NCBI RefSeq assembly: GCF_030144855.1
Contig: NC_082736.1
Span: 25,482,001 to 25,546,000 of the forward strand
DNA length: 64,000 nt
Direction of reading: 5' to 3'
Source of the DNA: Hypanus sabinus
Lineage: Eukaryota
The position numbers were made by a program, and so were the translations under genes. How positions within the stretch are numbered: position 1 is the first letter of the stretch; every line of letters starts with the position of its first letter. The notes beneath the pieces were generated by a model, which saw nothing but the letters and a program-made list of their open reading frames with translations, did not search any database and was not told where the DNA came from. Positions 37,279 to 64,000 of the stretch are shown here, piece after piece.

Positions 37279-37578
37279 TTATTTTGGGAGGCGCACTGAA
37301 GGAGGTGTGAGGCGCTCCTTCCCTTTGCTAACCTGCAGTTCACCCTTGGGCAAGGTGTAGCACCTACTTAGCCGCCCGATAAGGGTCATATGAAACCACG
37401 GGAGTAGGTGGTGAACCAGTGTAGACCACAAGTCCTGGATATGTGACCACTGACGCCAGGCAGACAATCTCTGAAGAGTATTGATAATGGATGGGGGTCA
37501 CCCGTCTGCCCAACAGAAGGCATGGCCACGGAAAGACCACGATCGGCCATGTCAAGCGACGGGGCACATAACGAATGA
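37279..37578 (+). mobile_element. SINE-like insertion splitting a CR1 fragment
   Basis: Discrete block ending acataacgaatgaat; the CR1 text (tttaaatacacccaatga ... cccacagattcaccaccctctg) continues on both sides. Confidence 0.55.
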
Positions 37579-37604
37579 ATCCCACAGATTCACCACCCTC
37601 TGTC

Positions 37605-38190
37605 CGGGCTGGGTCAGTCTGGCCCGGAGGGCCGAAGGGAAATCAACCCCCATCCCCTCGCTGCCGCCTCATCCCTCACCTGCCCCCTTCCGCCATGCTC
37701 CTTCAGCAGTACTTCCGGTCCATCCTCAATCGTCTTCCCACCTACTTCCGCCCCCAATACTAAACCCTTTCGGGACGGAGAGGAGGGGCTGCGGTTTTCC
37801 ACCTCAGACCCTAGTAATTATCGGGGAGGGTGAGAGAGGGAGCGGGGCAGGAGGAGTGAATGGAGGAAACGAAAAGGAAGGGGGCTGGAAGTTTCGCCGT
37901 CCGGAACGACTGATAGGCGCACACACACAGGGAGGCGGGGGAAGGGGAAGCTATAAAGCGGCGGACCGGCCGGCGATCGTGACCCAGAAGCAGTCGGTTG
38001 GCGGGATCGGAGGTGGGTGAGGAGGGAGCGTGGAGGAGCGCCCGGGGTTGCGGGATTCGAGGGAGCGTCTGCGGGGGGGTAGTTTGGTTGCAACCGGGGT
38101 GGTCGTAGATTAGGAGGGGCCGGTCGTGCCGGTGGGTGTAACGTGGACCTGGGCTGCGAGGCTTCCTTCCCCCTCCCTCCCTCCCTCTGT
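37605..38190. promoter_or_regulatory. Bidirectional CpG-rich EIF1AD/BANF1 promoter (P1) with non-coding first exons
   Basis: ETS acttccgg at 37711, YY1-like ccgccatg at 37690, GC boxes, TATAAA at 37952; minus-strand donor cag|gtgagg at 37680 (EIF1AD exon 1) and plus-strand donor ag|gtgggt at 38012 (BANF1 exon 1). Confidence 0.8.
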
Positions 38191-39058
38191 ACACCTCCCC
38201 CTCCTCTCCCCTTACACCATCCCCTCCCCCCTCCTCTCCCCTTACACCATCCCCTCCCCCTCCTCTCCCCTTACACCATCCCCCTCCCCCTCCTCTCCCC
38301 TTACACCATCCCCTCCCCCTCCTCTCCCCTTACACCATCCCCTCCCCCTCCTCTCCCCTTACACCATCCCCTCCCCCTCCTCTCCCCTTACACCATCCCC
38401 TCCCCCTCTCCCCTTACACCATCCCCTCCCCCTCCTCTCCCCTTACACCATCCCCTCCCCCTCCTCTCCCCTTACACCTTCCCCTCCCCCTCCTCTCCCC
38501 TTACACCATCCCCTCCCCCTCCTCTCCCCTTACACCATCCCCTCCCCCTCCTCTCCCCTTACACCTTCCCCTCCTCCTCCTCTCCCGTTACACCATCCCC
38601 TCCCCCTCCTCTCCCGTTACACCATCCCCTCCCCCTCCTCTCCCCTTACACCATCCCCTCCCCCTCCTCTCCCCTTACACCATCCCCCTCCCCCTCCTCT
38701 CCCCTTACACCATCCCCTCCCCCTCCTCTCCCCTTACACCATCCCCTCCCCCTCCTCTCCCCTTACACCATCCCCTCCCCCCTCCTCTCCCCTTACACCA
38801 TCCCCTCCCCCTCTCCCCTTACACCATCCCCTCCCCCTCCTCTCCCCTTACACCATCCCCTCCCCCTCCTCTCCCCTTACACCTTCCCCTCCCCCTCCTC
38901 TCCCCTTACACCATCCCCTCCCCCTCCTCTCCCCTTACACCATCCCCTCCCCCTCCTCTCCCCTTACACCTTCCCCTCCTCCTCCTCTCCCGTTACACCA
39001 TCCCCTCCCCCTCCTCTCCCCTTACACCTTCCCCTCGCCCTCCTCTCCCCGTACACCT
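38190..39058. repeat. 29-bp C-rich minisatellite (VNTR1) in BANF1 intron 1
   Basis: Unit ccccctcctctccccttacaccatcccct, ~30 copies. Confidence 0.95.
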
Positions 39059-40941
39059 CATAAAATCCTCTCTCCCTTTCCCAAATCTTGTCATCTACCA
39101 TTTGCTTTGGTGGTGTTAATGGGGCATTTTGCTGTCTGCTGTTTTATTATGCTGGTTATATTTTCAAATCTCTCTTCTGATAAATATCTTTTGTTCTCGT
39201 TTGCTTTATTGAGATACAGCGCGGAATGGGCTCTTCGAGCCATGCCGCCCAGCAACCCCTGATTTACCCCTTGCCTGATCATGGGACTATTAACAATGAC
39301 CCATTAACCTACTAACCGGTCGGTCTTTGGACTGTGAGAGGAAATCGGTGCACCCAGAGGAAACTCACAACGGTAACGGGCAGAACGTTAAAAACTCCGT
39401 AACAGGCAGCGGCTGGAATTGAACCCTTTTTGCATGCACTGTAAAGCGCCGTNNNNNNNNNNNNNNNNNNNNNNNNNNNNNNNNNNNNNNNNNNNNNNNN
39501 NNNNNNNNNNNNNNNNNNNNNNNNNNNNNNNNNNNNNNNNNNNNNNNNNNNNNNNNNNNNNNNNNNNNNNNNNNNNNNNNNNNNNNNNNNNNNNNNNNNN
39601 NNNNNNNNNNNNNNNNNNNNNNNNNNNNNNNNNNNNNNNNNNNNNNNNNNNNTCCCCTCCTCTCCCCTTACACCTTCCCCTCCTCCTCCTCTCCCGTTAC
39701 ACCATCCCCTCCCCCTCCTCTCCCCTTACACCTTCCCCTCCCCCTCCTCTCCCCTTACACCTTCCCCTCGCCCTCCTCTCCCCGTACACCTCATAAAATC
39801 CTCTCTCCCTTTCCCAAATCTTGTCATCTACCATTTGCTTTGGTGGTGTTAATGGGGCATTTTGCTGTCTGCTGTTTTATTATGCTGGTTATATTTTCAA
39901 ATCTCTCTTCTGATAAATATCTTTTGTTCTCGTTTGCTTTATTGAGATACAGCGCGGAATGGGCTCTTCGAGCCATGCCGCCCAGCAACCCCTGATTTAC
40001 CCCTTGCCTGATCATGGGACTATTAACAATGACCCATTAACCTACTAACCGGTCGGTCTTTGGACTGTGAGAGGAAATCGGTGCACCCAGAGGAAACTCA
40101 CACGGTAACGGGCAGAACGTTAAAAACTCCGTACAGGCAGCGGCTGGAATTGAACCCTTTTTGCATGCACTGTAAAGCGCCGTGTTAACCATTACACTTC
40201 CGTGTCGTTACCACCACCCCTCCATTGGTTCCTAAAGGAATTCCAATGCTCTTTCTGAAAAATGCCTTTTCATTTCAGTTCAGTGTCTTTCTTTGCCAAG
40301 TTATCCGAGTGTCTCGAGCCCACTGTGGGACAGCTTTTCTTTCTCCGCGGAGTTTTGGATGATGCCTGGTTCTTTCTACTTCGGGCCATCTGCCGTGGGT
40401 CGGGGTGGGGTTTGGACGCTACCAGTCCCATTCTGCCGCCAGTAGTCCGATGGCGGGAGAGTTTTTAAACTGGAACCGGGGACGATCTTGGGAGACGGGA
40501 TCCAGTGGAAGGAGCAGTCGTCACAAACTGGGGTCTCCATTGTTTGCCGTGGAGGGCTAGCTATCTCTTATCATACCCCCCGCTCTCCACGGAGCATTGC
40601 GGAGACGTCTTCCTGGCTATTAGATCCCGTCTGCCCGTTGGAGCTGACTGGCGTGCCTCGAACACACTGGGGTACGAGGCCATCGGTTCCCCTCGCCTGG
40701 CTTAGCCCGCCTGTTGGAGCGGTGGCGCGGGGAGCGGCCGCTGTCACATGCCAGCAGCTGCTTGGAGCCACACGTGTGGTCCGAGTGTCCGGCAGTGCCC
40801 AAACTTTTCCCTGTGGTGGAGTCGGAGGCCAGTGGGTGGGGGGTTACTATAGCTGCCTTGGAGTGGGCACCGTGGGCCTGTCTCTGTGCTGTCTGGTGAT
40901 AATCTCTCTCATTTCGCCGCAGACGCACGCCTGCGGACAGG

Positions 40942-41064
40942 ATGTCGACATCGCAGAAGCACCGCAACTTCGTGGCTGAGCCCATGGGCGAGAAGTCGGT
41001 GAAGTGCCTGGCGGGGATCGGCGAGGCCCTCGGCCAGAGGCTGGAAAATCAGGGATTTCAGAAG
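40942..41064 (+). CDS. BANF1: BANF1 copy 1, first coding exon
   Basis: Acceptor cgcag at 40922; [41 protein letters not shown]|gtgagc. Confidence 0.97.
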
Positions 41065-44257: not shown

Positions 44258-44289
<32 letters not shown>

Positions 44290-44302
44290 CCTCCCTCTCT
44301 AG

Positions 44303-44449
44303 GCGTCTGCGGTGCTGGGCCAATATCTGGTCCTGAACAAGGACGAGGGGATGTTCAAGGAGTGGCTGAGTGACACCTGCCAGGCCAATTCCAAGCAAAG
44401 CAGCGACTGCCACACCTGCTTGCGGGAGTGGAGCGACGCCTTCCTGTAA
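44303..44449 (+). CDS. BANF1: BANF1 copy 1, last coding exon (89-aa product)
   Basis: (ct)n tract then tag|; [48 protein letters not shown]. Confidence 0.97.
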
Positions 44450-44955
44450 TCTCGCCCCCTGACCCCCATCCCTCCCACACCCCCTCCTTCTCAGAGTGAA
44501 ATCGGCCCACCCAGCTCATTTGGTTCGGTCCTTGTGCTCCCTTAACTACTGAAGCCACTAGGAGGGCCGGGCTGTGAACCGGAGAGCACGGGAAGGGTTG
44601 CCCTCTTCCCCTGCCACTACTCATCACACCCTCCTGAGCCAAGACGTTGGATATTCTTAGCGTGAGGTTTTTTTTTAAAACCTTCCCCCCTCCCCTCCAC
44701 TACCCACCCCTGTGCTGAAAATGAGTAATCTGCCCTGTGACGGGTCACACAGAGTGAGGCTTTCATTTCGATTGTGCCACGAACCAGTTCTCGTTTTCTC
44801 TCTCTCTCTGCTTGAAGATCCATTCCAGAGGCCACACTGAGTTCTGAACTGCGACTCTCATTATTTCAAGCCCGCCATCCTCCTTCCCGCTCCCATGACT
44901 GCGCTGGGTGTTGAGACTCAACTTCACTGTAGAAATTGTTCTTAAATTTTATATG

Positions 44956-44961
44956 AATAAA
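44956..44961 (+). terminator. BANF1 copy 1 polyadenylation signal
   Basis: aataaa followed by GT-rich sequence. Confidence 0.7.
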
Positions 44962-46869
44962 TAAGTCTGTGTTGCTCTGGAATATTCTCATTGCTCCTCT
45001 TAGCCGGCCTTTTTGGTAGTGGCATCAGTACCGGACTCTGAGGCGAGCGGTCGAATCCGGTCGGCTCCTTGCACGCTTTCCATTAATGAGTGTTGGGCAA
45101 GCAACTCGGCCTCGTAAAAAAAAAATAGACGAAAATGCTAAAGAAATGGCGAGGTTGCTGCCTGATGTGCGGAAGAGGACAGCAAATCTGTCAGGCGATG
45201 TTTTAGGAAGAATTTCAAAGAGTCAAAGTACATGCACATTTATGAAAGTACATTTATTATACAGTCTGAGACAGCCACCAAACAAAAACACCATGGAAAA
45301 ACCCTTCCATTACGCAAACCCCACCCCACCCCCCCCGCACGTGGAAACAGCATTAACAACGAAAAACAACAACACAGTATAAAATGCAAAATCAAAAGAG
45401 TCCAGGTATATTCAGTTCAGCTCAGTGTCCGTTACCTGCAGGCCACCCCAATTCAAAGTCGCCCAAAACAGCAACGTCAAAAAAAATTGGCCAGAAACGG
45501 GTCATAACATGAACCACAAATCCACAAATGGCATCAATCAAATTTGCCCAAGAACACTTCCGTCGTCTGATTTCTGAACTGACACAATAACACAATATTT
45601 TTGGTCTCTTTTTCCCCCACACACATATAATGAGTTGTGGCTAACGGAGACTTAAAGAGTAGATACGAGATAGGACACCTTCCACTCACTCGGGACAGGA
45701 GACCGTTGCTGATGTGAGAAGGTCTGTGGACGCCGGGACCCCAAGGCCGCACACACAAAACGCTGGAGGAGCTCGGCAGGTCAGGCTGCATCTATGGGGA
45801 AGAGTGAACCAAAGAGTCTCGTTGAAGGGTCTTGGCCCGAAACGGTGACTGTTTGATTTTTCCATGGGTACTGCCTGGCCTGCGGAGGAGACTCCCCTTG
45901 GAGTCTGTGCAGTAACATTTAGCATGCGCCAGATAGATTCCTCTGTCAATAACTATTAGGAACTAAAACACAATTTTAAGATACTGTAGTAGTGTTCTGA
46001 ATTTAATTTGTTACTCAGTTAAATCGTAGTTTCAAGCAACACACACAAAATGCTGGTGGAACGCAGTAGGCCAGGCAGCATCTATAGGGAGAAGTACAGT
46101 CGAAGTTTCGGGCCGAGACCCTTCGTCAGGACTAAATGACAGGAAAGATAGAGACTTGAAGGTAGTGGAGGGAGGGAAAAATGCGGTTGGTTTGTTTTAT
46201 ACCTTTTTACTACTTCCATGAAATTTCGGCTAACTGGGGCAAAATGTTCTGGTCCTGGCATGTCCCAATTAACTGGAATCTGCTGTGTTTCCTCTTGCAA
46301 TTTACAGTGTTGTGCTGTTGCTGCTTCTGCATATCAAATTTCACAGCGCGCACCAGTAATATTAAACCCGATTCAGTTCCGTAGGTGGAATGGCGTGCTT
46401 GTAGTCTCAATTAACTCTCACATGGAGTTCTCTGTCACCCTCCCCCCCCCCCAAAGCTGTAACGGTTGGAGGGTGCATTTTGTTGTCAAAGTATGCATGT
46501 GCAGTACAACTCTGATAATCGTCTTCTCCAGATGCCCATGAAATACAGAAAAACCATGGGAGTTGAAAGGAAATACATCAATTCTCCCCCCCCCCCCCGG
46601 ATGGAACAGAAAGACAAGAAAAAACCAAAACCCCCACCCCTCCTTCGCAGAAAAAGCTAAGATTCCGCCCCCTCCCCATGGAAAATGGCAGCCGGAATAT
46701 CAAAAGCCCAACCTCCCCCCCACCCCTCCCTTGCACACAGAAAACTGACAGTTAAAAATTAGTTTTCAAATAAGAACAAGATTCTCAGTGTTGGGTGGCA
46801 TCAACGGAGGAAGAAACCATTGAAAGTTTTCGTGCCTGAAGCTCTTCATCCTGACGAAGACCACTTGTG

Positions 46870-47208
46870 CATGCCATCTTGGACAATGACTCCCATCCAC
46901 TCCATACTGTACTGGTTAGGCACAGGAGTACATTCAGCCAGAGACCCATTCCACCGAGATGCAACACTGAGCGACATAGGAAGTCATTCCTAGCTGTGGC
47001 CATCAAACTTTACAACTCCTCCCTCGGAGTGTCAGACACCCTGAGCCAATAGGCTGGTCCTGGACTTATTTCCACGGCATGATTTACTTATTATTATTTA
47101 ATTATTTATGGTTTTATATTGCTATATTTCTACACTATTCTTGGTTGGTGCAACTGTAACGAAACCCAGTTTCCCTCAGGATCAATAAAGTACGTCTGTC
47201 TGTCTGTT
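46870..47208 (+). mobile_element. Rex1/Babar-like 3' fragment (duplicated at ~57324-57662)
   Basis: HAILDNDSHPLH...AIKLYNSS; (tctg)n tail; ttgtg flanking duplication. Confidence 0.85.
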
Positions 47209-47749
47209 TTGTGTCTGTGGTGGAAGTCATCTGCGAGACACTGAAGCTGGTGATAAAAGAATTCTTTATTCATCAGCAGAAGCGGGCAGATCCTCTCGGC
47301 CGAGGCTCACCGGCTGAAAAGACCATCACCCTGAAGATCAAAGTTAACGGTAGGTGGCTCAATTAAACCTCAGCAGTTACAGTGATGTGGTTCGCTCCAG
47401 CACTCTGGGTGGACTGAGTTGCGTATCTACAGTAGGAGACACCTCAGAATGTTCAAATGCCTTTGCCAGGATAAAATAATTGCAAGCTTCCCTGAACTTA
47501 TTTACAATGGTGCTAATTATTTAGTACAAGACAGGAACAGGCCATTCGGCCCACAATGTTGTGCTGGACCAGCTAAAAAACAAAGCATCCAAACACTAAT
47601 TCCTCCTACCTACACTGTGTTCATATCCCTCCATCTTCCTCACATCCACGTGCTTATCCAAACGTCTCTCAAAAAGCATCTATCACCATAACAGGCATTC
47701 ACCTCTCTGAGTAAAAAACTTACCCCTCACCCCCCCCCCCACCTTCAAT

Positions 47750-47965
47750 GGCTACCCAAACGGTATATAAGGTGTTGTTCCTCCAACCTGAGTGTGGCTT
47801 CATCTTGACAGTAGCGGAGGCCGTGGATAGACGTATCAGAATGGGAATGGGACGTGGAATTAAAATGTGTGGCCACTGGGCGATCCTGCTTTCTCTGGAG
47901 GACCGAGCGTAGGCGTTCAGCGAAACGGTCTCCCAGTCTGCGTCGGGTCTCACCGATATATAAAA
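47750..47965 (-). mobile_element. Penelope-like GIY-YIG fragment (duplicated at ~58205-58420)
   Basis: LYIGETRRRLGDRFAERLRSV...PVATHFNSTSHSHSDTSIHGLRYCQDEATLRLEEQHLIYRLGS. Confidence 0.85.
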
Positions 47966-48849
47966 GGATATATGAATCCCACAGATTCACCACCCTCTGG
48001 CTAAATGCAGGTTTAAACGGATGGTTGATGGTCAGCACAGGCTCGGCGAGCCGAGGAACCTGCTTCTATGCTGAATCTCTCTGGATAATACAAGTTTGGG
48101 GAGGGAATTCTCGAGTTACACCACACGACTCGTGCACAGCAGAGAAAATTCGGGGACTCTGCCTTTTCTCTTTTAAGCGGCAGAAGATGAGAGGTGTATA
48201 GGATGATGAGAGGCATTGATCGTGTGGATAGTCATAGAGGCTTTTTTTCCCAGGGCTGGAATGGCTAACACGAGGGGGCACAGTTTTAAGGTGCTTGGAA
48301 GTAGGTACAGAGGAGTAAATTTTTTACTCAGAGAGTGGTGAGTGCTTGGAAGTAGGTACATAGGAGTAAATTTTTTACTCAGAGTGTGGTGAGTGCTTGG
48401 AATGGGCTGCCGGCGACGGTGGTGGAAGCAGATACGATAGGGTCTTTTAAGAGACTCCTGGACAGGTACATGGAGCTTAGAACAATAGTGAGCTATGGGC
48501 AAGCCTAGGTAATTTCTAAAGTAAATACATGTTCGACACAGCTTTGTGGGCCGAAGGGTCTGTATTGCGCTGTGGGTTTTATATGTTTCTAGGTTCTAAA
48601 AGGAGGAGGCACAAGCGACCGGGACTTCAAGAGCATGGGGCGAGGAAGATGTGGGAAAACCTCCGAGGGATTTGCAGGTGGGGATGAGGAGCGCTGGCGG
48701 AGAAACGAGCCGGGAGAAGGGGACAGGCAGGTCTGAGATCGCAGGGAACCGGCACAGTCCCTTCGTCAGGGAGCGAACGTGAGGGTCCGAGATCCGGGGT
48801 TGGGGGGTGGAGGGAGCTGAGGCCGAGGATGGTCCCGTCTATCAGGCCT

Positions 48850-49432
48850 GGTTGGGTCAGTCTGGCCCGGAGGGCCGAAGGGAATTCAACCCCCATCCCC
48901 TCGCTGCCGCCTCATCCCCCACCTGCCCCCTTCCGCCATGCTCCTTCAGCAGTACTTCCGGTCCATCCTCAATCGTCTTCCCACCTACTTCCGCCCCCAA
49001 TACTAAACCCTTTCGGGACGGAGAGGAGGGGCTGCGGTTTTCCACCTCAGACCCTAGTAATTATCGGGGAGGGTGAGAGAGGGAGCGGGGCAGGAGGAGT
49101 GGATGGAGGAAACGAAAAGGAAGGGGGCTGGAAGTTTCGCCGTCCGGAACGACTGATAGGCGCACACACACAGGGAGGCGGGGGAAGGGGAAGCTATAAA
49201 GCGGCGGACCGGCCGGCGATCGTGACCCAGAAGCAGTCGGTTGGCGGGATCGGAGGTGGGTGAGGAGGGAGCGTGGAGGAGCGCCCGGGGTTGCGGGATT
49301 CGAGGGAGCGTCTGCGGGGGGGTAGTTTGGTTGCAACCGGGGTGGTCGTAGATTAGGAGGGGCCGGTCGTGCCGGTGGGTGTAACGTGGACCTGGGCTGC
49401 GAGGCTTCCTTCCCCCTCCCTCCCTCCCTCTG
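48850..49432. promoter_or_regulatory. Duplicated bidirectional promoter P2 (BANF1 copy 2)
   Basis: Near-identical to P1; TATAAA 49195-49200. Confidence 0.8.
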
Positions 49433-50292
49433 TACACCTTCCCCTCCTCTCCCCTTACACCATCCCCTCCCCCTCCTCTCCCCTTACACCATCCTCTCCC
49501 TTTACACCTTCCCCTCCTCCTCCTCTCCCTGTACACCTTCCCCTCCCCCTCCTCTCCCCTTACACCTTCCCCTCCCCCCCCTCTCTCCGTACACCTTCCC
49601 CTCCCCCTCCTCTCCCCTTACACCTTCCCCTCCCCCTCCTCTCCCCTTACACCATCCCCTTCCCCTCCTCTCCCCTTACACCATCCCCTTCCCCTCCTCT
49701 CCCCTTACACCATCCCCTTCCCCTCCTCTCCCCTTACACCATCCCCTTCCCCTCCTCTCCCCTTACACCATCCCCTCCCCCTCCTCTCCCCTAACGCCAT
49801 CCCCTCCCCCTCCTCTCCCCTAACGCCATCCCCTCCCCCTCCTCTCCCCTTACGCCATCCCCTCCCCCTCCTCTCCCCTTACGCCATCCCCTCCCCCTCC
49901 TCTCCCCTTACGCCATCCCCTCCCCCTCCTCTCCCCTTACGCCATCCCCTCCCCCTCCTCTCCCCTTACGCCATCCCCTCCCCCTCCTCTCCCCTTACGC
50001 CATCCCCTCCCCCTCCTCTCCCCTTACGCCATCCCCTCCCCCTCCTCTCCCCTTACGCCATCCCCTCCCCCTCCTCTCCCCTTACGCCATCCCCTCCCCC
50101 TCCTCTCCCCTTACGCCATCCCCTCCCCCTCCTCTCCCCTTACACCATCCCCTTCCCCTCCTCTCCCCTTACACCTTCCCCTCCTCCTCCTCTCCCGTTA
50201 CACCATCCCCTCCCCCTCCTCTCCCCTTACACCTTCCCCTCCCCCTCCTCTCCCCTTACACCTTCCCCTCGCCCTCCTCTCCCCGTACACCT
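49432..50292. repeat. 29-bp C-rich minisatellite (VNTR2)
   Basis: Same unit as VNTR1, with a block of tacgccat variants. Confidence 0.95.
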
Positions 50293-51442
50293 CATAAAAT
50301 CCTCTCTCCCTTTCCCAAATCTTGTCATCTACCATTTGCTTTGGTGGTGTTAATGGGGCATTTTGCTGTCTGCTGTTTTATTATGCTGGTTATATTTTCA
50401 AATCTCTCTTCTGATAAATATCTTTTGTTCTCGTTTGCTTTATTGAGATACAGCGCGGAATGGGCTCTTCGAGCCATGCCGCCCAGCAACCCCTGATTTA
50501 CCCCTTGCCTGATCATGGGACTATTAACAATGACCCATTAACCTACTAACCGGTCGGTCTTTGGACTGTGAGAGGAAATCGGTGCACCCAGAGGAAACTC
50601 ACACGGTAACGGGCAGAACGTTAAAAACTCCGTACAGGCAGCGGCTGGAATTGAACCCTTTTTGCATGCACTGTAAAGCGCCGTGTTAACCATTACACTT
50701 CCGTGTCGTTACCACCACCCCTCCATTGGTTCCTAAAGGAATTCCAATGCTCTTTCTGAAAAATGCCTTTTCATTTCAGTTCAGTGTCTTTCTTTGCCAA
50801 GTTATCCGAGTGTCTCGAGCCCACTGTGGGACAGCTTTTCTTTCTCCGCGGAGTTTTGGATGATGCCTGGTTCTTTCTACTTCGGGCCATCTGCCGTGGG
50901 TCGGGGTGGGGTTTGGACGCTACCAGTCCCATTCTGCCGCCAGTAGTCCGATGGCGGGAGAGTTTTTAAACTGGAACCGGGGACGATCTTGGGAGACGGG
51001 ATCCAGTGGAAGGAGCAGTCGTCACAAACTGGGGTCTCCATTGTTTGCCGTGGAGGGCTAGCTATCTCTTATCATACCCCCCGCTCTCCACGGAGCATTG
51101 CGGAGACGTCTTCCTGGCTATTAGATCCCGTCTGCCCGTTGGAGCTGACTGGCGTGCCTCGAACACACTGGGGTACGAGGCCATCGGTTCCCCTCGCCTG
51201 GCTTAGCCCGCCTGTTGGAGCGGTGGCGCGGGGAGCGGCCGCTGTCACATGCCAGCAGCTGCTTGGAGCCACACGTGTGGTCCGAGTGTCCGGCAGTGCC
51301 CAAACTTTTCCCTGTGGTGGAGTCGGAGGCCAGTGGGTGGGGGGTTACTATAGCTGCCTTGGAGTGGGCACCGTGGGCCTGTCTCTGTGCTGTCTGGTGA
51401 TAATCTCTCTCATTTCGCCGCAGACGCACGCCTGCGGACAGG

Positions 51443-51565
51443 ATGTCGACATCGCAGAAGCACCGCAACTTCGTGGCTGAGCCCATGGGCGAGAAGTCGG
51501 TGAAGTGCCTGGCGGGGATCGGCGAGGCCCTCGGCCAGAGGCTGGAAAATCAGGGATTTCAGAAG
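51443..51565 (+). CDS. BANF1: BANF1 copy 2, first coding exon
   Basis: Identical to copy 1 exon; intact splice sites. Confidence 0.95.
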
Positions 51566-54709: not shown

Positions 54710-54741
<32 letters not shown>

Positions 54742-54754
54742 CCTCCCTCTCTAG

Positions 54755-54901
54755 GCGTCTGCGGTGCTGGGCCAATATCTGGTCCTGAACAAGGACGAGG
54801 GGACGTTCAAGGAGTGGCTGAGTGACACCTGCCAGGCCAATTCCAAGCAAAGCAGCGACTGCCACACCTGCTTGCGGGAGTGGAGCGACGCCTTCCTGTA
54901 A
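54755..54901 (+). CDS. BANF1: BANF1 copy 2, last coding exon (T58 variant)
   Basis: [48 protein letters not shown]; aataaa at 55409. Confidence 0.95.
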
Positions 54902-57900
54902 TCTCTCCCCCCTGACCCCCATCCCTCCCACACCCCCTCCTTCTCAGAGTGAAATCGGCCCACCCAGCTCATTTGGTTCGGTCCTTGTGCTCCCTTAACT
55001 ACTGAAGCCACTAGGAGGGCCGGGCTGTGAACCGGAGAGCACGGGAAGGGTTGCCCTCTTCCCCTGCCACTACTCATCACACCCTCCTGAGCCAAGACGT
55101 TGGATATTCTTAGCGTGAGGTTTTTTTTTAAAACCTTCCCCCCTCCCCTCCACTGCCCACCCCTGTGCTGAAAATGAGTAATCTGCCCTGTGACGGGTCA
55201 CACAGAGTGAGGCTTTCATTTCGATTGTGCCACGAACCAGTTCTCGTTTTCTCTCTCTCTCTGCTTGAAGATCCATTCCAGAGGCCACACTGAGTTCTGA
55301 ACTGCGACTCTCATTATTTCAAGCCCGCCATCCTCCTTCCCGCTCCCATGACTGCGCTGGGTGTTGAGACTCAACTTCACTGTAGAAATTGTTCTTAAAT
55401 TTTATATGAATAAATAAGTCTGTGTTGCTCTGGAATATTCTCATTGCTCCTCTTAGCCGGCCTTTGTGGTAGTGGCATCAGTACCGGACTCTGAGGCGAG
55501 CGGTCGAATCCGGTCGGCTCCTTGCACGCTTTCCATTAATGAGTGTTGGGCAAGCAACTCGGCCTCGTAAAAAAAAAATAGACGAAAATGCTAAAGAAAT
55601 GGCGAGGTTGCTGCCTGATGTGCGGAAGAGGACAGCAAATCTGTCAGGCGATGTTTTAGGAAGAATTTCAAAGAGTCAAAGTACATGCACATTTATGAAA
55701 GTACATTTATTATACAGTCTGAGACAGCCACCAAACAAAAACACCATGGAAAAACCCTTCCATTACGCAAACCCCACCCCACCCCCCCCCCGCACGTGGA
55801 AACAGCATTAACAACGAAAAACAACAACACAGTATAAAATGCAAAATCAAAAGAGTCCAGGTATATTCAGTTCAGCTCAGTGTCCGTTACCTGCAGGCCA
55901 CCCCAATTCAAAGTCGCCCAAAACAGCAACGTCAAAAAAAATTGGCCAGAAACGGGTCATAACATGAACCACAAATCCACAAATGGCATCAATCAAATTT
56001 GCCCAAGAACACTTCCGTCGTCTGATTTCTGAACTGACACAATAACACAATATTTTTGGTCTCTTTTTCCCCCACACACATATAATGAGTTGTGGCTAAC
56101 GGAGACTTAAAGAGTAGATACGAGATAGGACACCTTCCACTCACTCGGGACAGGAGACCGTTGCTGATGTGAGAAGGTCTGTGGACGCCGGGACCCCAAG
56201 GCCGCACACACAAAACGCTGGAGGAGCTCGGCAGGTCAGGCTGCATCTATGGGGAAGAGTGAACCAAAGAGTCTCGTTGAAGGGTCTTGGCCCGAAACGG
56301 TGACTGTTTGATTTTTCCATGGGTACTGCCTGGCCTGCGGAGGAGACTCCCCTTGGAGTCTGTGCAGTAACATTTAGCATGCGCCAGATAGATTCCTCTG
56401 TCAATAACTATTAGGAACTAAAACACAATTTTAAGATACTGTAGTAGTGTTCTGAATTTAATTTGTTACTCAGTTAAATCGTAGTTTCAAGCAACACACA
56501 CAAAATGCTGGTGGAACGCAGTAGGCCAGGCAGCATCTATAGGGAGAAGTACAGTCGAAGTTTCGGGCCGAGACCCTTCGTCAGGACTAAATGACAGGAA
56601 AGATAGAGACTTGAAGGTAGTGGAGGGAGGGAAAAATGCGGTTGGTTTGTTTTATACCTTTTTACTACTTCCATGAAATTTCGGCTAACTGGGGCAAAAT
56701 GTTCTGGTCCTGGCATGTCCCAATTAACTGGAATCTGCTGTGTTTCCTCTTGCAATTTACAGTGTTGTGCTGTTGCTGCTTCTGCATATCAAATTTCACA
56801 GCGCGCACCAGTAATATTAAACCCGATTCAGTTCCGTAGGTGGAATGGCGTGCTTGTAGTCTCAATTAACTCTCACATGGAGTTCTCTGTCACCCTCCCC
56901 CCCCCCAAAGCTGTAACGGTTGGAGGGTGCATTTTGTTGTCAGAGTATGCATGTGCAGTACAACTCTGATAATCGTCTTCTCCAGATGCCCATGAAATAC
57001 AGAAAAACCATGGGAGTTGAAAGGAAATACATCAATTCTCCCCCCCCCCCCCGGATGGAACAGAAAGACAAGAAAAAACCAAAACCCCCACCCCTCCTTC
57101 GCAGAAAAAGCTAAGATTCCGCCCCCTCCCCATGGAAAATGGCAGCCGGAATATCAAAACCCCAACCTCCCCCCCACCCCTCCCTTGCACACAGAAAACT
57201 GACAGTTAAAAATTAGTTTTCAAATAAGAACAAGATTCTCAGTGTTGGGTGGCATCAACGGAGGAAGAAACCATTGAAAGTTTTCGTGCCTGAAGCTCTT
57301 CATCCTGACGAAGACCACTTGTGCATGCCATCTTGGACAATGACTCCCATCCACTCCATACTGTACTGGTTAGGCACAGGAGTACATTCAGCCAGAGACT
57401 CATTCCACCGAGATGCAACACTGAGCGACATAGGAAGTCATTCCTGCCTGTGGCCATCAAACTTTACAACTCCTCCCTCGGAGTGTCAGACACCCTGAGC
57501 CAATAGGCTGGTCCTGGACTTATTTCCACGGCATGATTTACTTATTATTATTTAATTATTTATGGTTTTATATTGCTATACTTCTACACTATTCTTGGTT
57601 GGTGCAACTGTAACGAAACCCAGTTTCCCTCAGGATCAATAAAGTATGTCTGTCTGTCTGTTTTGTGTCTGTGGTGGAAGTCATCTGCGAGACACTGAAG
57701 CTGGTGATAAAAGAATTCTTTATTCATCAGCAGAAGCGGGCAGATCCTCTCGGCCGAGGCTCAGCGGCTGAAAAGACCATCACCCTGAAGATCAAAGTTA
57801 ACAGTAGGTGGCTCAATTAAACCTCAGCAGTTAGTGATGTGGTTCGCTCCAGCACTCTGGGTGGACTGAGTTGCGTATCTACAGTAGGGGACACCTCAGA

Positions 57901-59304
57901 ATGTTCAAATGCCTTTGCCAGGATAAAATAATTGCAAGCTTCCCTGAACTTATTTACAATGGTGCTAATTATTTAGTACAAGACAGGAACAGGCCATTCG
58001 GCCCACAATGTTGTGCTGGACCAGCTAAAAAACAAAGCATCCAAACACTAATTCCTCCTACCTACACTGTGTTCATATCCCTCCATCTTCCTCACATCCA
58101 CGTGCTTATCCAAACGTCTCTCAAAAAGCATCTATCACCATAACAGGCATTCACCTCTCTGAGTAAAAAAACTTACCCCTCACCCCCCCCCCCCCCACCT
58201 TCAATGGCTACCCAAACGGTATATAAGGTGTTGTTCCTCCAACCTGAGTGTGGCTTCATCTTGACAGTTGAGGAGGCCATGGATAGACATATCAGAATGG
58301 GAATGGGACGTGGAATTAAAATGTGTGGCCACTGGGAGATCCTGCTTTCTCTGGCGGACCGAGCGCAGGTGTTCAGCGAAACGGTCTCCCAGTCTGCGTC
58401 AGGTCTCACCAATATATAAAAGGATATATGAATCCCACAGATTCACCACCCTCTGGCTAAATGCAGGTTTAAACGGATGGTTGATGGTCAGCACAGGCTC
58501 GGCGAGCCGAGGAACCTGCTTCTATGCTGAATCTCTCTGGATAATACAAGTTTGGGGAGGGAATTCTCGAGTTACACCACACGACTCGTGCACAGCAGAG
58601 AAAATTCGGGGACTCTGCCTTTTCTCTTTTAAGCGGCAGAAGATGAGAGGTGTATAGGATGATGAGAGGCATTGATCGTGTGGATAGTCATAGAGGCTTT
58701 TTTTCCCAGGGCTGGAATGGCTAACACGAGGGGGCACAGTTTTAAGGTGCTTGGAAGTAGGTACAGAGGAGTAAATTTTTTACTCAGAGAGTGGTGAGTG
58801 CTTGGAAGTAGGTACATAGGAGTAAATTTTTTACTCAGAGTGTGGTGAGTGCTTGGAATGGGCTGCCGGCGACGGTGGTGGAAGCAGATACGATAGGGTC
58901 TTTTAAGAGACTCCTGGACAGGTACATGGAGCTTAGAACAATAGTGAGCTATGGGCAAGCCTAGGTAATTTCTAAAGTAAATACATGTTCGACACAGCTT
59001 TGTGGGCCGAAGGGTCTGTATTGCGCTGTGGGTTTTATATGTTTCTAGGTTCTAAAAGGACGAGGCACAAGCGACCGGGACTTCAAGAGCATGGGGCGAG
59101 GAAGATGTGGGAAAACCTCCGAGGGATTTGCAGGTGGGGATGAGGAGCGCTGGCGGAGAAACGAGCCGGGAGAAGGGGACAGGCAGGTCTGAGATCGCAG
59201 GGAACCGGCACAGTCCCTTCGTCAGGGAGCGAACGTGAGGGTCCGAGATCCGGGGATGGGGGGTGGAGGGAGCTGAGGCCGAGGATGGTCCCGTCTATCA
59301 GGCC

Positions 59305-59889
59305 TGGTTGGGTCAGTCTGGCCCGGAGGGCCGAAGGGAATTCAACCCCCATCCCCTCGCTGCCGCCTCATCCCCCACCTGGCCCCTTCCGCCATGCTCC
59401 TTCAGCAGTACTTCCGGTCCATCCTCAATCGTCTTCCCACCTACTTCCGCCCCCAATACTAAACCCTTTCGGGACGGAGAGGAGAGGCTGCGGTTTTCCA
59501 CCTCAGACCCTAGTAATTATCGGGGAGGGTGAGAGAGGGAGCGGGGCAGGAGGAGTGGATGGAGGAAACGAAAAGGAAGGGGGCTGGAAGTTTCGCCGTC
59601 CGGAACGACTGATAGGCGCACACACACAGGGAGGCGGGGGAAGGGGAAGCTATAAAGCGGCGGACCGGCCGGCGATCGTGACCCAGAAGCAGTCGGTTGG
59701 CGGGATCGGAGGTGGGTGAGGAGGGAGCGTGGAGGAGCGCCCGGGGTTGCGGGATTCGAGGGAGCGTCTGCGGGGGGGGTAGTTTGGTTGCAACCGGGGT
59801 GGTCGTAGATTAGGAGGGGCCGGTCGTGCCGGTGGGTGTAACGTGGACCTGGGCTGCGAGGCTTCCTTCCCTCTCCCTCCCTCCCTCTG
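59305..59889. promoter_or_regulatory. Duplicated bidirectional promoter P3 (BANF1 copy 3)
   Basis: Near-identical to P2; TATAAA 59651-59656. Confidence 0.8.
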
Positions 59890-60610
59890 TACACCTTCCC
59901 CTCCTCTCCCCTTACACCATCCCCTCCCCCTCCTCTCCCCTTACACCATCCTCTCCCTTTACACCTTCCCCTCCCCCCCTCTCTCCGTGCACCTTCCCCT
60001 CCCCCTCCTCTCCCCTTACACCTTCCCCTCCCCCTCCTCTCCCCGTACACCATCCCCTTCCCCTCCTCTCCCCTTACACCATCCCCTCCCCCTCCTCTCC
60101 CCTTACACCATCCCCTCCCCCTCCTCTCCCCTTACACCATCCCCTCCCCCTCCTCTCCCCTTACACCATCCCCTCCCCCTCCTCTCCCCTTACACCATCC
60201 CCTCCCCCTCCTCTCCCCTTACACCATCCCCTCCCCCTCCTCTCCCCTTACACCATCCCCTCCCCCTCCTCTCCCCTTACACCATCCCCTCCCCCTCCTC
60301 TCCCCTAACGCCATCCCCTCCCCCTCCTCTCCCCTTACGCCATCCCCTCCCCCTCCTCTCCCCTTACGCCATCCCCTCCCCCTCCTCTCCCCTTACGCCA
60401 TCCCCTCCCCCTCCTCTCCCCTTACGCCATCCCCTCCCCCTCCTCTCCCCTTACGCCATCCCCTCCCCCTCCTCTCCCCTTACGCCATCCCCTCCCCCTC
60501 CTCTCCCCTTACACCATCCCCTCCCCCTCCTCTCCCCTTACACCATCCCCTCCCCCTCCTCTCCCCTTACACCATCCCCTCCCCCTCCTCTCCTCGTACA
60601 CCTTCCCATC
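59889..60610. repeat. 29-bp C-rich minisatellite (VNTR3)
   Basis: Same unit; degenerates into a unique pyrimidine tract at its 3' end. Confidence 0.95.
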
Positions 60611-62247
60611 GCCCCTACACCTTCTCCTCCCTCCCTACACTCTCCCTCCTCGCTCCCTCTCTACTATTCCTCTCCCTATCCCCTACACCACTCCCTCCCC
60701 CTCCCCCACATGACACTCTCTCACATCACTCCCCTCACCCCACACAACACCTTCTCACACCCCTCCCCTTCTCTTGCCCCCCTTACCCTATCTGCCTTCC
60801 CCTCCTCATCTCTCCCTCTTCCCCCCTACTTGAGATTCTTAGCCACTGGTTCCTAGTTCCCCACCCTCCGTCTCCCATTTCTGCTTTTGTCCCACAACCC
60901 GGGGAAGGCAGAGAGTTTAGGTGGATTCCAGCCACTGCTTCCCCAATACCTGTTCCCACTTCCGTTCGGCCCCCCCTAGGGCTGCAGGCCACTGGGTCCG
61001 GGGATCTTACCATTGCTGATAATCTCGTGGTTTCTGCGTCTTCAACAAATCCTCTCTCCCTTTCCCAAATCCTGTCGTCTATGGTGTGTTAATGGGCTGT
61101 TGTATCATGCTGGTTTTATTTTCATATCTCTCTTCCTATAAATATCTTTTGTTCTCTTTCATTTTATTGAGATACGGCGCGGATTAAGCCCTTCGAGCCA
61201 CGCCACCCAGTATTCCCCTGATTTAACCTGAGCCTATTCACGGGACAATTTACAATGACCAATTAATCAGTCAGTCTTTGGACTGTGGGAGGAAACCCAT
61301 GTTGTCGAGGGAGAACGCTCCTCACAGGCAGCGTTGGGAATTGAACTCTTTTCATCTGCACTGTAAAGCGTTGTGCTAACCACTATGCTGCAGTGTTGTC
61401 ACCACCACCGCCCCCCCCCCCCACACACACACTTTTTTTTCTGCTGGTTCCTAAAGGAATTCCAATGCTCTTTCTGAAAAATGCCTTTTCATTTCAGTTC
61501 AGTGTCTTTCTTTGCCAAGTTATCCGAGTATCTCGAGCCCACTGTGGGACAGCTTTTCTTTCTCCGCGGAGTTTTGGACGATGCCTGGTTATTTCTGCTT
61601 CGGGCCATCTGCCGTGGGTCGGGGTGGGGTTTGGGCGCTACCAGTCCCATTCTGCCTCCAGTAGTCCGATGGCGGGAGAGTTTTTAAACTGGAACCGGGG
61701 ACGATCTTGGGAGACGGGATCCAGTGGGAGGAGCAGTCGTCACAAACTGGGGTCTCCATTGTTTGCCGTGGAGGGCTAGCTATCTCTTATCATACCCCCC
61801 GCTCTCCACGGAGCATTGCGGAGACGTCTTCCTGGCTATTAGATCCCGTCTGCCCGTTGGAGCTGACTGGTGTGCCTCGAACACACTGGGGTACGAGGCC
61901 ATCGGTTCCCCTCGCCTGGGTTAGCCCGCCTGTCGGAGCGGTGGACCGGGGAGCCGAGTGCCCGGCGGGGCCCCGGAGTGGACACAAGAAGCCCCTACAC
62001 CAGAGGTGCTGCCCCTCCCTGGGAAACCTGTACATCCCTCTTGCTGCAGATGGAGGACGCAATCGTTTGAGGTGAAGAGAGGGCGAAGCTTTTCCCTGTG
62101 GCGGAGTCGGATGCCAGTGGGTAATGGTTTGGGAGGATTCAGGTTGTGGGGGCGATTACTGGCTAGGAGTGGGCACCGCGCGCCTGTCTCCGTGCTGTCT
62201 GGTGATAATCTCTCTCATTTCGCTGCAGACACACGCCTGGGGACAGG

Positions 62248-62370
62248 ATGTCGACGTCGCAGAAGCACCGCGACTTCGTGGCTGAGCCCATGGGCGAGAA
62301 GTCGGTGAAGTGCCTGGCGGGGATCGGCGAGGCCCTCGGCCAGAGGCTGGAGGATCAGGGATTTGACAAG
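62248..62370 (+). CDS. BANF1: BANF1 copy 3, first coding exon (last exon beyond the window)
   Basis: Acceptor tgcag at 62228; [41 protein letters not shown]|gtgagc. Confidence 0.95.
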
Positions 62371-63054
62371 GTGAGCAGTTCCCCCCCCCCCCCCCCCCCA
62401 CCGATCCCCTACCTTCCTCACTCGTTTACCCCCTCCGGATCCTCCTGCCTCCTGCAGAACTGAGGGTTCACTCAGTGGAAGTGGGAGGGCTGTTTGCCCG
62501 TCTTGTCCTGGGTCAAATCTCCCTAAACTCTAACGTATACTGGTGCTAACAGCAGGTCATTGGCGATTGGCTGTTGCCGCCGGAACAGAATGATGTAGGA
62601 ACAGAGGTGCAGGAATTTTTGATGGTTCAGAAGGTTCATTTCATTTTCAGAGTAAGCACGATACAACTCTGATCTGTCTTCTCCGGATAGCCAGGAAATA
62701 CAGAAAGACTGCGGAAATCGTTGAAAGAAAAGACATCAACTTCACCCACCCCGCCCCGCACGAGAAAGAAAACAAAACAAAAACTCGCAAACCCCACCCC
62801 CCGCACAAAAGCTAACAGACCGCCCGCGCCTGAAAACAGCAGCTGGAACATCAATCCCTAAACAACTCCCCCGCAAAAAAATCTTAACATATCGGCTGCA
62901 AGGGGGAGGGAAAAAACAGCGGCAGTAACATCGAACCCCAATCCCCCCTCCACTGCACACCAAAAAAAACTAAAATCGCCCGCCTGGAGAAAGAGCAACA
63001 AGCCCCAAATCTCCACACCCTCCCCCTCACCCCCACCCCCACACAACAACTAAC

Positions 63055-63880
63055 ATAGAGTCATAGAAAGTCTAAAGCACAATACAGGCCCTTCGGCTCA
63101 CAGAGTTGTGCAGAACACATCCCGACCTTACTCCCGAAATTACTCAGCTTACCTATAGCCCTCTATTTCTCTAAGCTCCAGGAGTCTCTTAAAAGACCCC
63201 ATCGTATCGGCCCCCACCACCATCGCCAGCAGCCCATTCCACGCACTCACCACTCTCTGAGTAAAAAAAACACCCCTGACATCTCCTCTGTACCTACTCC
63301 CCAGCACCTTAAACCTGTGTCCTCTTGTGGCAGCCATTTCAGCCCTGGGATAAAGCCTCTGACTACCCACACGATCAATGCCTCTCATCATCTTATACAC
63401 CTCCATCAGGTCACCTCTCAACCTCCGTTGCTCCAGGGAGAAAAGGCCGAGTTCACTCAACCTATTCTCATAAGGCGTGCTCCCCATTCCAGGCAACATC
63501 CTTGTAAATCTCCTCTGCACCCTTTCTATGGCTTCCACATCCTTCCTGTAGTGAGGCAACCAGAACTGAGCACAGTACTCCAAGTGGGGTCTGACCAGGG
63601 TCCTATATAGCTGTAACATTACCTCTCAGCTCCTAAATTCAGTTCCCTGATTGATAAAGGCCAATACACAGTACGCCTTCTTAACCACAGAGTCAACCTG
63701 TGCAGCTGCTTTGAGCATCTGTGGACTCAGACCCCAAGATCCCTTTGATCCTCCACACTGGCATTAATGCTGTTTTCTGCCATCATATTTGACCTACCAA
63801 AATGAACCACTGCACACTTATCTGGATTGAACTCCATCTGCCACTTCTCAGCCCAGTTTTGCAATCAATGTCCCGCTGTA
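63055..63880 (-). mobile_element. CR1 LINE 3' fragment specific to BANF1 copy 3 intron 2
   Basis: ORF 63149-63619 LQLYRTLVRPHLEYCAQFWLPHYRKD; absent at the homologous position of copies 1/2 (~41790, ~52288). Confidence 0.9.
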
Positions 63881-64000
63881 TATCATCCACAAGGACGTCA
63901 AACCTCCCCCCCCCCCCGCCCCCCCAACCTCCCAATCAGCAACAAGAAAGCCAACCTGGGTAAATGCCAGCAGGTTTTTTCCACTGAGGTTGGGTGGGAC

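What the first reader, a model, noticed from the sequence alone, without database searches (positions are those of the whole stretch)
37575..64000. Tandem array of at least three BANF1 (BAF) genes with two diverged protein types
Seen: three BANF1 units at ~10.5-kb spacing, each with promoter, TATA and intact splice sites. Copies 1 and 2 are complete 89-aa ORFs; copy 3 has a clearly diverged intron and exon. The gap-free stretch 43291-53573 has a BANF1 last exon followed by a new promoter and first coding exon, which requires a tandem arrangement unless misassembled at the VNTR. Known: at this locus in human, BANF1 is a single, very conserved gene. BAF is an obligate dimer that bridges DNA, binds LEM proteins and lamin A/C, blocks retroviral autointegration, restricts poxvirus DNA and limits cGAS activation. 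Inference: a lineage-specific BAF paralog system in which a canonical copy (3) coexists with an amplified derived type (1/2; ~70% identical to human BAF by manual comparison from memory). Homo- and heterodimers could have different roles, such as foreign-DNA/retroelement defence or germline chromatin.
Basis: partly seen in the sequence, partly recalled or inferred. Interest (0 to 1): 0.85.

Follow-up and report, generated by a model that had tools for sequence, protein, structure and literature searches.

The report
Stingray-specific diverged, amplified BAF genes
Beside its normal BANF1 gene this stingray carries tandem, transcribed copies of a diverged version of the nuclear protein BAF, also annotated in a second stingray genus, whose changes likely weaken its grip on nuclear-membrane (LEM) proteins while it is predicted to keep DNA binding, lamin binding and dimer formation.

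Summary
At the SART1-EIF1AD-BANF1 locus two derived genes (A1, A2; 89 aa) precede a canonical BANF1 (B), whose last exon lies 4.9 kb past the window. A differs from B at 11 residues, all changed on the A branch (11:0 against Mobula). A is not an artefact. Three A-type proteins are annotated in Hemitrygon akajei, none was found in Mobula, sawfish, skate or sharks, and RNA contigs show A spliced and transcribed. Changes fall on the predicted dimer face (43, 44, 49, 53, 85) and the LEM valley (53, 58). Published DNA, lamin and phosphorylation residues are kept. Best reading: a LEM-weakened BAF that heterodimerises with B (45%); relaxed selection plus dosage is the main rival (pairwise dN/dS 0.49; no positive selection shown). 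Exact A copy number is open, because a likely contig break sits in the array. Automatic annotation lists these genes; my searches found no paper on them.

The parts
26040..36340 (-). EIF1AD coding exons (about 36249-36340, 33790-33900, 29830-29940, 26040-26182), head-to-head with the array; marks the BANF1 locus
   Evidence: 33790-33900 matches Pfam eIF-1a (E 6e-13) and human EIF1AD in PDB (E 1e-16); the other exons read from translations; SART-1 exons further upstream on +
37575..38164 (+). Promoter 1, likely bidirectional with EIF1AD; TATAAA at 37952; non-coding exon 1 ending at 38012; 5' edge of the duplicated unit (28-bp match 37575-37602 = 47972-47999)
   Evidence: exon-1 letters join the exon-2 acceptor in RNA contigs of X1 and X4 (loose ends at 40921, only 9-11 letters)
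38165..39057 (+). 29-bp VNTR1 in intron 1
39058..40183 (.). 200 N (39453-39652) flanked by a 530-bp overlap: inferred contig break inside the array; the sequence after it starts in a VNTR tail identical to VNTR2, not to VNTR1
   Evidence: 140 of 140 bases shared with the VNTR2 tail, 59 with VNTR1
40923..41064 (+). A1 exon 2 (ATG 40942, codons 1-41; N9, N36, Q40)
44303..44980 (+). A1 exon 3 (codons 42-89, stop ends 44449; S43 A44 Y49 N53 G57 M58 S64 S85), 3' UTR, AATAAA at 44956
   Evidence: one X5 contig bridges exon 2 (144 letters) to exon 3 (97 letters)
44981..48846 (.). Spacer: old 3' flank (homologous to the flank behind B) plus repeat fragments, ending at the duplication junction
48847..50291 (+). 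Promoter 2 (TATAAA 49195, exon 1 ends 49255) and VNTR2 (49408-50291), whose 5' units resemble VNTR3 and whose 3' units resemble the A-type tail: likely crossover point
51424..51565 (+). A2 exon 2 (ATG 51443), coding part identical to A1
54755..55430 (+). A2 exon 3 (stop ends 54901; T58), 3' UTR, AATAAA at 55409
59303..60660 (+). Promoter 3 (TATAAA 59651, exon 1 ends 59711) and VNTR3
62229..62370 (+). B (canonical BANF1) exon 2 (ATG 62248; D9, D36, D40)
62371..64000 (+). Start of B intron 2 (6483 bases), which runs off the window; B exon 3 lies at G000:C81:25550854-25551000 and paralog D further on at about G000:C81:25568192-25574481
   Evidence: B protein P0095, D protein P0119

Best explanation
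This is a real tandem duplication of the stingray BANF1 gene: a derived, transcribed type A, in two assembled copies, sits beside canonical B and likely acts as a BAF with weakened binding to LEM-domain membrane proteins, predicted to keep DNA bridging and lamin binding and to form mixed dimers with B. Shown: gene structures, synteny, splicing, three A-type proteins in a second genus, all 11 amino-acid changes on the A branch, and the positions of those changes. Inferred history: a block from the EIF1AD/BANF1 promoter to about 3 kb past the polyA site was duplicated, probably after the split from Mobulidae. The upstream copy diverged, while gene conversion kept the promoters and some tracts nearly identical. 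Unequal crossover in the intron-1 VNTR then multiplied A. Inferred function: K53N and L58M/T, with neighbours N36, Q40 and G57, would lower LEM affinity; Y43S, V44A and C85S would loosen or re-key the dimer face. With near-identical promoters A would be co-expressed with B and lower the share of BAF dimers tethered to the inner nuclear membrane.
For: A-type cluster: 2 Hypanus sabinus and 3 Hemitrygon akajei proteins, each set on one record, 93-99% identical. No other A-type among the 86 hits and the cluster members. A clade 100/99, sister to H. sabinus B at 95/84. Relative rate against Mobula B 11:0, binomial p 0.001. 9 of 11 changes lie in a 29-residue window (scan p 0.009). 5 of 11 lie in the 17-residue predicted dimer face (p 0.03) and 6 of 11 in dimer plus LEM residues (23 positions, p 0.03). 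D40, Y43, L58, K64 and C85 are kept in 15 of 15 canonical vertebrate BAFs that differ from B at 2-14 sites. K53 is essential for emerin binding, and 53E is selectively emerin-deficient (PMC2173821, passages). L58 contacts the LEM domain (PMC6212729, passages); L58R abolishes LEM binding but not DNA bridging (PMC5638020, passages). Lamin contacts 6 of 6, DNA residues K6/G25/G27, dimer core L46/G47 and S2/T3/S4 are unchanged. The A-B heterodimer model scores 0.92 against a best control of 0.02, runs agree in at least 97% of contacts, partner pLDDT at least 94; the mark was reached by 51 of 78 solved and 2 of 108 mismatched pairs; the BAF dimer is a solved structure, so this pass may be from memory. 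Spliced A-type RNA contigs. H. akajei P0007 is identical to A1 over exon 3, where about 4 changes are expected at 3.6% neutral divergence (P 0.018; rough yardstick).
Against: Only 2 of 10 published LEM-contact residues changed (p 0.36); F39, Q48, V51, L52, K54, E61 and W62 are kept, and L58M and K53N are milder than the tested L58R and K53E. Pairwise dN/dS is 0.49 (13 non-synonymous, 7 synonymous), about 1 on the A branch if synonymous changes are split evenly, which relaxed selection explains as well. Synonymous changes cluster in the same segment (4 of 6 purely synonymous codons; Fisher p 0.58 against the amino-acid changes), so conversion elsewhere in the gene may create the clustering. The enrichment tests are post hoc and modest. 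N9 and Y49 are common in other BAFs. No binding was measured and no tissue is known.
Confidence: 0.45

Rival explanations
1. Dosage amplification with relaxed selection: A drifted after duplication while B covered the essential role; it is now a slightly impaired but functionally equivalent BAF kept for quantity.
For: A-branch dN/dS about 1; promoters 99% identical, so no regulatory divergence upstream; 8 of 10 LEM contacts and all listed DNA and lamin residues kept; clustering may come from conversion; A2 and two H. akajei copies carry further private changes (M58T, M15H, five in P0005).
Against: The changes hit positions kept in 15 of 15 canonical controls; near-stasis of A between two genera after a burst of 11 changes; the ancient paralog D changed 8 of the same 11 positions (31 of 88 differ, p 0.008).
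Confidence: 0.3
2. A is a tissue-specialised (germline or oocyte) BAF or a foreign-DNA guard, working like mammalian BAF-L or cichlid banf2w.
For: Precedents: BAF-L heterodimerises with BAF and has reduced LEM affinity (10.1101/2024.05.16.594580, passages); copy-number-variable banf2 with a derived female-linked copy in cichlids (PMC8268354, passages).
Against: A-type contigs occur in 4 of 4 laid runs, and 4 of 4 listed runs of organism A hold 72-78% of the last-exon words (these runs were found by holding it); promoter shared with B; BAF-L cannot bind DNA whereas A keeps K6/G25/G27; C81 (39.8 Mb) is below the 45-73 Mb given for the myliobatiform X1/X2, so sex linkage is unlikely; nothing points to antiviral function.
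Confidence: 0.13
3. A1 and A2 are two alleles of one gene, joined by an assembly error at VNTR2; the true locus is one A plus B. This concerns copy number only, not the existence of A.
For: A1-A2 differ by only 0.18% (6 of 3281) and 0.51% (31 of 6115); a likely contig break lies just before the A1 body; VNTR2 is a chimera; the X5 contig shows only the T58 form.
Against: VNTR2 matches neither VNTR3 nor VNTR1 exactly and the post-gap sequence is VNTR2-type, which rather suggests a further hidden unit; three different A proteins, one differing from another at 5 residues, in a second genus; both M58 and T58 letters are present in X1 and X4 (also expected of a heterozygote).
Confidence: 0.15
4. A is a transcribed but decaying duplicate that makes no useful protein.
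For: High A-branch dN/dS; Y43S removes a conserved aromatic residue from the predicted dimer face.
Against: All 5 known copies in two genera keep an intact 89-aa frame; the 3 gene units seen here keep splice signals; exon 3 is invariant between A1 and P0007; Pfam BAF score 144 bits against 156 for B.
Confidence: 0.07

Closest known systems
BANF1 / BAF (Pfam PF02961; human 1CI4, 2ODG, 6GHD)
   Same: 89 aa, same numbering, intron after codon 41 as in B, SART1-EIF1AD synteny, DNA-, lamin- and phospho-residues kept; B 82% and A 72% identical to human (counted).
   Different: A has 11 changes from B, five at positions kept in all 15 canonical controls; several tandem copies.
BANF2 / BAF-L (mammalian testis paralogue; cichlid banf2 and banf2w)
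   Same: A second BAF that heterodimerises with BAF and binds LEM domains more weakly, as inferred for A; copy-number variation with a derived copy is known in cichlids.
   Different: A is a young tandem offshoot of BANF1 nested beside B and keeps the DNA-binding residues. The likely BANF2 of this genome is a separate gene on C30, 2.8 Mb from an RRBP1-family match (the human BANF2-RRBP1 linkage is recalled).
Engineered separation-of-function mutants BAF L58R and K53E
   Same: The same two positions are changed in A (L58M/T, K53N); positions 9, 53 and 64, in one phenotypic class in PMC2173821, are all changed.
   Different: A's substitutions are milder, natural and combined with dimer-face changes; effects untested.
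Chondrichthyan paralog D (RefSeq 'BAF A-like/B-like', 112-113 aa)
   Same: Same locus, tandem with BANF1; differs from B at 8 of the 11 positions changed in A.
   Different: Ancient (chimaera, sharks, skates, rays; 100/100 clade), N-terminally extended, also changes lamin-contact A12 to V in most members; different residues at most shared positions.

Membership tests
BAF family (PF02961) | Full-length match to the BAF profile above the curated cut-off | tested here: met
   A 144 bits, B 156, D 133; cut-off 25
BAF family (PF02961) | DNA-binding residues K6, G25, G27 and N-terminal phosphosites kept | tested here: met
   residues. D9N differs, but N9 is in 73 of 94 homologues
BAF family (PF02961) | Dimer through helix 3 (L46, G47, L50) | tested here: inconclusive
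   Core residues kept; A-B model 0.92 vs best control 0.02 (51 of 78 solved, 2 of 108 mismatched pairs reach the mark) but likely helped by the solved dimer; 5 interface residues changed
Canonical BANF1 | Position head-to-head with EIF1AD next to SART1 | tested here: met
   the human gene order is recalled
Canonical BANF1 | Intact LEM-binding valley (R37, F39, Q48, V51, L52, K53, K54, L58, E61, W62) | tested here: not met
   A has N53 and M/T58; B keeps K53 and L58 (37 is Q in both). Met for B, not for A
Canonical BANF1 | Lamin A/C Ig-fold contacts V11, A12, P14, E83, A87, F88 | tested here: met
   6 of 6 kept in A and B
Canonical BANF1 | Measured binding to DNA, LEM domains and lamin; rescue of nuclear assembly | not testable with these tools
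   needs biochemistry and cells
BANF2 / BAF-L | Orthology: separate locus and clade from BANF1 | tested here: not met
   A nests beside stingray B; a separate BAF-like gene lies on C30
BANF2 / BAF-L | Loss of DNA binding | tested here: inconclusive
   Residues are kept in A, so loss is not predicted; not measured
BANF2 / BAF-L | Testis-predominant expression | not testable with these tools
   runs are coded, without tissue labels, and contig depth cannot rank genes

The most novel reading that the evidence does not exclude
Cartilaginous fishes have twice, independently, spun off BAF paralogs at this locus that remodel the same LEM/dimer face (D before the chimaera split, A in dasyatid stingrays), and in stingrays the amplified LEM-weak type A supplies most of the cell's BAF. 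BAF dimers would then form a combinatorial code that sets how much chromatin is tethered to the nuclear membrane, a natural test of whether DNA bridging and LEM binding can be split between subunits.
Probability: 0.2. Interest if true: 0.75.

Novelty: new variant of a known kind. Interest (0 to 1): 0.5.

Why it matters
BAF is among the most conserved nuclear proteins, and what is known of its separable functions comes from engineered point mutants and one mammalian paralog. A natural, expressed, amplified variant that changes K53 and L58 and the dimer face but keeps DNA and lamin residues gives a ready pair (A against B, 11 differences) for testing how much LEM binding a vertebrate cell needs and whether mixed dimers tune membrane tethering. 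The older paralog D offers an independent replicate. If A binds like B, the case falls back to an ordinary tandem duplication under relaxed selection.

Tried and rejected
Sex linkage (prompted by cichlid banf2w): C81 is 39.8 Mb, below the 45-73 Mb reported for X1/X2 of the two myliobatiform genomes; no BANF term in that text or in PMC12318234 and its one searchable supplement; the preprint's supplements could not be seen. Rejected weakly, on size alone.

Expression ranking: summed contig depth on A exons was about 145,000 in X1 and 9,000 in X4, and B-type letters at 44745/44752 were a minority (1,998 of 42,557 in X1; 261 of 1,117 in X4; in X15 an A-like contig at 338 against a B-like one at 50). 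The tool states that contig depth cannot rank genes, so this is a lead only, not evidence. The M58:T58 shares (C at 44352: 61% in X1, 73% in X4; G at 44702: 90% and 54%) disagree with each other and were not used for copy number.

N9/D9 as a functional marker: rejected. Positive selection: not shown (dN/dS 0.49). Direct enrichment in LEM contacts: not significant (2 of 10, p 0.36); within one residue 6 of 11 (p 0.02, post hoc). Absence of changes in the lamin/DNA/dimer-core set is not itself significant (P 0.21). 3' UTR: both types share the same AU-rich stretch before AATAAA (read), so no UTR-based difference is claimed. A sixth BAF-like match on C77 (E 0.59) was dropped as chance. The exon-3 search for longer proteins saw only 3 candidates, so absence of A in other taxa rests (116 candidates, 86 hits) and is limited to annotated proteins. 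The two laid runs of organism A behaved as RNA and all 22 listed runs are kept as contigs, so genomic depth and spanning reads could not be tested. Papers without useful content: PMC10099716 (passages), PMC11811190 (passages; only S4 near linker DNA), PMC13443024 (passages); the NMR BAF-LEM paper was not held; a five-term search on L58R/K53/emerin gave 0 papers. Earlier findings of the scan: nothing by sequence, words or place.


Full report
Observation. The window holds three BANF1-type units on the + strand, with ATGs at 40942, 51443 and 62248. Each has a TATA box, a non-coding first exon, a 29-bp VNTR in intron 1, and canonical splice sites. A1 and A2 encode 89 residues and differ only at codon 58 (M/T). 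The last exon of the third unit lies 4.9 kb past the window end and completes a canonical BANF1, here called B. EIF1AD lies head-to-head upstream and SART1 beyond it, the gene order recalled for human BANF1. Searches of G000 gave five BAF genes: A1, A2, B, a fourth (D) 22-28 kb past the window end, and a fifth on C30 (a sixth match at E 0.59 was dropped).

Is type A real? The protein search returned A1 as an annotated 'barrier-to-autointegration factor A-like' of Hypanus sabinus. Its 90% cluster has 5 members: A1, A2 and three different proteins of Hemitrygon akajei on one record. They share N9, Q40, A44, Y49, N53, G57 and S64, with M or T at 58. Among the 86 hits and the cluster members, Mobula, Pristis, Leucoraja and the sharks gave canonical BAF and no A-type; this rests on annotated proteins only. 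In a protein tree of 31 rows (chosen from the named hits; the unnamed and most arthropod hits were left out) the five A proteins form a clade (100/99) whose sister is H. sabinus B (95/84), which suggests duplication within stingrays. Conversion with B could also pull A there. Four runs were laid on 40200-45600 (4 of 22 listed). Cover is concentrated on the exons. One X5 contig bridges exon 2 (144 letters, no difference) to exon 3 (97 letters, the T58 form), and loose ends in X1 and X4 carry the last letters of exon 1 at the exon-2 acceptor. So A is transcribed and spliced, although the tool guessed X1 and X4 to be DNA. An X15 contig matches A exon 3 and UTR with 3 differences in 241, and a second resembles B (20 differences, 4 gaps). 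An X15 contig over exon 2 carries S22, as the H. akajei proteins do.

How many A copies? A1 and A2 differ by 6 of 3281 and 31 of 6115 bases, a range alleles could also give. A 200-N stretch at 39453-39652 has the same 530 bases on both sides, which I read as a contig break; masked and true gaps cannot be told apart here. The sequence after it begins in a VNTR tail identical to VNTR2 over 140 of 140 bases, against 59 for VNTR1. Promoter 1 may therefore belong to a further, unassembled A unit, or the tail is allelic. VNTR2 starts like VNTR3 and ends like the A-type tail, as both unequal crossover and a misjoin predict. The gap-free stretch 43291-53573 links an A last exon to an A first coding exon. 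I put one A gene at 15% and two or three at 85%.

History (inferred). A and B are colinear from the promoter to about 3 kb past the polyA site, with 9.2% substitutions overall (521 of 5666) in patches from 0 to 22 per 100 bp. The three promoters differ at only 8 sites in about 560 bp. This fits an older block duplication followed by conversion, then recent amplification through the VNTR.

What changed in A. Eleven residues differ from B: D9N, D36N, D40Q, Y43S, V44A, F49Y, K53N, E57G, L58M/T, K64S and C85S. Mobula BANF1 agrees with B at all 11 (11:0, p 0.001). Pairwise dN/dS is 0.49, near 1 on the A branch if the 7 synonymous changes are shared evenly, so positive selection is not shown. N9 and Y49 are common elsewhere (73 and 57 of 94), but Q40, S43, N53, G57, M58 and S64 occur in 0-3% of 94 other BAFs. 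D40, Y43, L58, K64 and C85 are kept in 15 of 15 canonical vertebrate BAFs checked. After this burst A looks stable: P0007 differs from A1 at one residue and at none in exon 3, where about 4 changes are expected from a 3.6% intron yardstick (P 0.018). That yardstick uses 3 of the 8 X15 pieces shown, from an organism not shown to be the species of P0007, so it is rough.

Where the changes lie. Published LEM contacts are R37, F39, Q48, V51, L52, L58, E61 and W62, and lamin contacts are V11, A12, P14, E83, A87 and F88 (PMC6212729, passages). Residues 51, 53 and 54 are essential for emerin binding, 53E being selectively emerin-deficient, and 6, 25 and 27 are essential for DNA binding (PMC2173821, passages). 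L58R removes LEM binding but still bridges DNA and supports nuclear assembly (PMC5638020, passages). A changes K53 and L58 and keeps all lamin, DNA, dimer-core and N-terminal phosphosite residues. Two of ten LEM residues is not an enrichment (p 0.36). The A-B complex model scored 0.92 against a best control of 0.02 (runs agree in at least 97% of contacts, partner pLDDT at least 94; mark reached by 51 of 78 solved and 2 of 108 mismatched pairs). Since the BAF dimer is solved, the pass shows likeness rather than binding. Its use is the contact list: 14-16, 41, 43-44, 46-51, 53-54, 85 and 88-89, with residue 43 touching 50, 54 and 85 of the partner. Five of A's 11 changes are in these 17 positions (p 0.03), and six in the union with LEM residues (p 0.03). 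These tests are post hoc, and synonymous changes cluster in the same segment, so conversion may contribute.

The older paralog. D is a 112-residue BAF with an N-terminal extension, annotated in chimaera, sharks, skate, sawfish, electric ray and Mobula, often on a record of the same length as that of BANF1, and forming a 100/100 clade. It differs from B at 31 of 88 positions, including 8 of A's 11 (p 0.008) and 4 of A's 5 highly conserved ones (40, 43, 58, 64; p 0.004). Two independent duplicates altering the same face suggests either that this face is what specialises, or that it is what is freed when a canonical copy is present.

Mechanism. Most likely (45%) A is a DNA-bridging, lamin-binding BAF with lowered LEM affinity and an altered dimer face, co-expressed with B from near-identical promoters and able to form mixed dimers, so that fewer BAF dimers tether chromatin to the inner nuclear membrane. 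Everything in that sentence beyond sequence, position and transcription is inferred. Rivals: dosage with relaxed selection (30%), tissue-specific or defence role (13%), decay (7%); the false-duplication rival (15%) concerns copy number only.

Novelty. Automatic annotation already lists A1, A2, B and D as BAF-like genes. Four searches found no paper on them: BANF1+paralog+shark+duplication gave 2 papers on fish sex determination; barrier-to-autointegration+stingray gave 0; BAF+cartilaginous+gene duplication gave 0; and in a loose search none of the 15 listed of 865 papers held 'banf1'. Subscription journals are mostly outside the library. A second BAF that heterodimerises and binds LEM weakly is a known kind (BAF-L; 10.1101/2024.05.16.594580, passages), and copy-number-variable banf2 is known in cichlids (PMC8268354, passages). 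This is a new variant of that kind: young, derived from BANF1 itself, amplified, and keeping the DNA-binding residues. Interest 0.5.

Noticed in passing
G000:C81:25568192-25574481 (L004, L029), 22-28 kb past the window end: Ancient chondrichthyan BAF paralog D (112 aa, N-terminal extension, A12V at the lamin face, changes at 40, 43, 44, 54, 57, 58), well conserved from chimaera to rays; no paper found. Deserves its own study.
   Followed up: partly
G000:C30:87925804-87930862 (L023, L028): Fifth BAF gene, 90 aa, 2.8 Mb from an RRBP1-family match; likely the BANF2 orthologue.
   Followed up: partly
window 37676 versus 48919 and 59375: The presumed splice donor of EIF1AD's non-coding first exon (minus strand) reads GTGAG in promoter 1 but GTGGG in promoters 2 and 3, where no EIF1AD follows.
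   Followed up: no
P0005 (Hemitrygon akajei): This A copy has F43 with C85, while the other four have S43 with S85; 43 and 85 touch across the predicted dimer. One case only.
   Followed up: no
window 40971-41006, run X15: A contig of organism C differs from A1 at 6 sites in 36 bases (5 synonymous, C22S) in a tract where A and B of this genome are identical: likely a lineage-specific conversion between A and B.
   Followed up: no
P0083, P0085, P0088, P0091, P0077: BAF-like proteins of a locust, a tick (two), a sand fly and a mussel also change positions around 43-44, 53 and 57-58; tick P0085 has S43 A44 like type A.
   Followed up: no
P0014 (Mobula birostris): A BAF-like protein on a 211-Mb record with five changes at conserved sites (13, 15, 20, 24, 50), unlike type A; perhaps a retrocopy.
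   Followed up: no
window 47813-47955 and its copy near 58270-58411: 10 of the 31 substitutions between the two spacer copies cluster in 143 bases of a repeat fragment.
   Followed up: no
window 31850-33677: 52-bp VNTR, 35 copies, in an EIF1AD intron.
   Followed up: no
window 2605-3144, 5077-5895, 12636-15794, 21728-24769: Fragments that read like Tc1/mariner transposases and LINE reverse transcriptases in the ORF list (names recalled, not scanned); two LINE-like pieces are inverted to each other at 84% identity.
   Followed up: no
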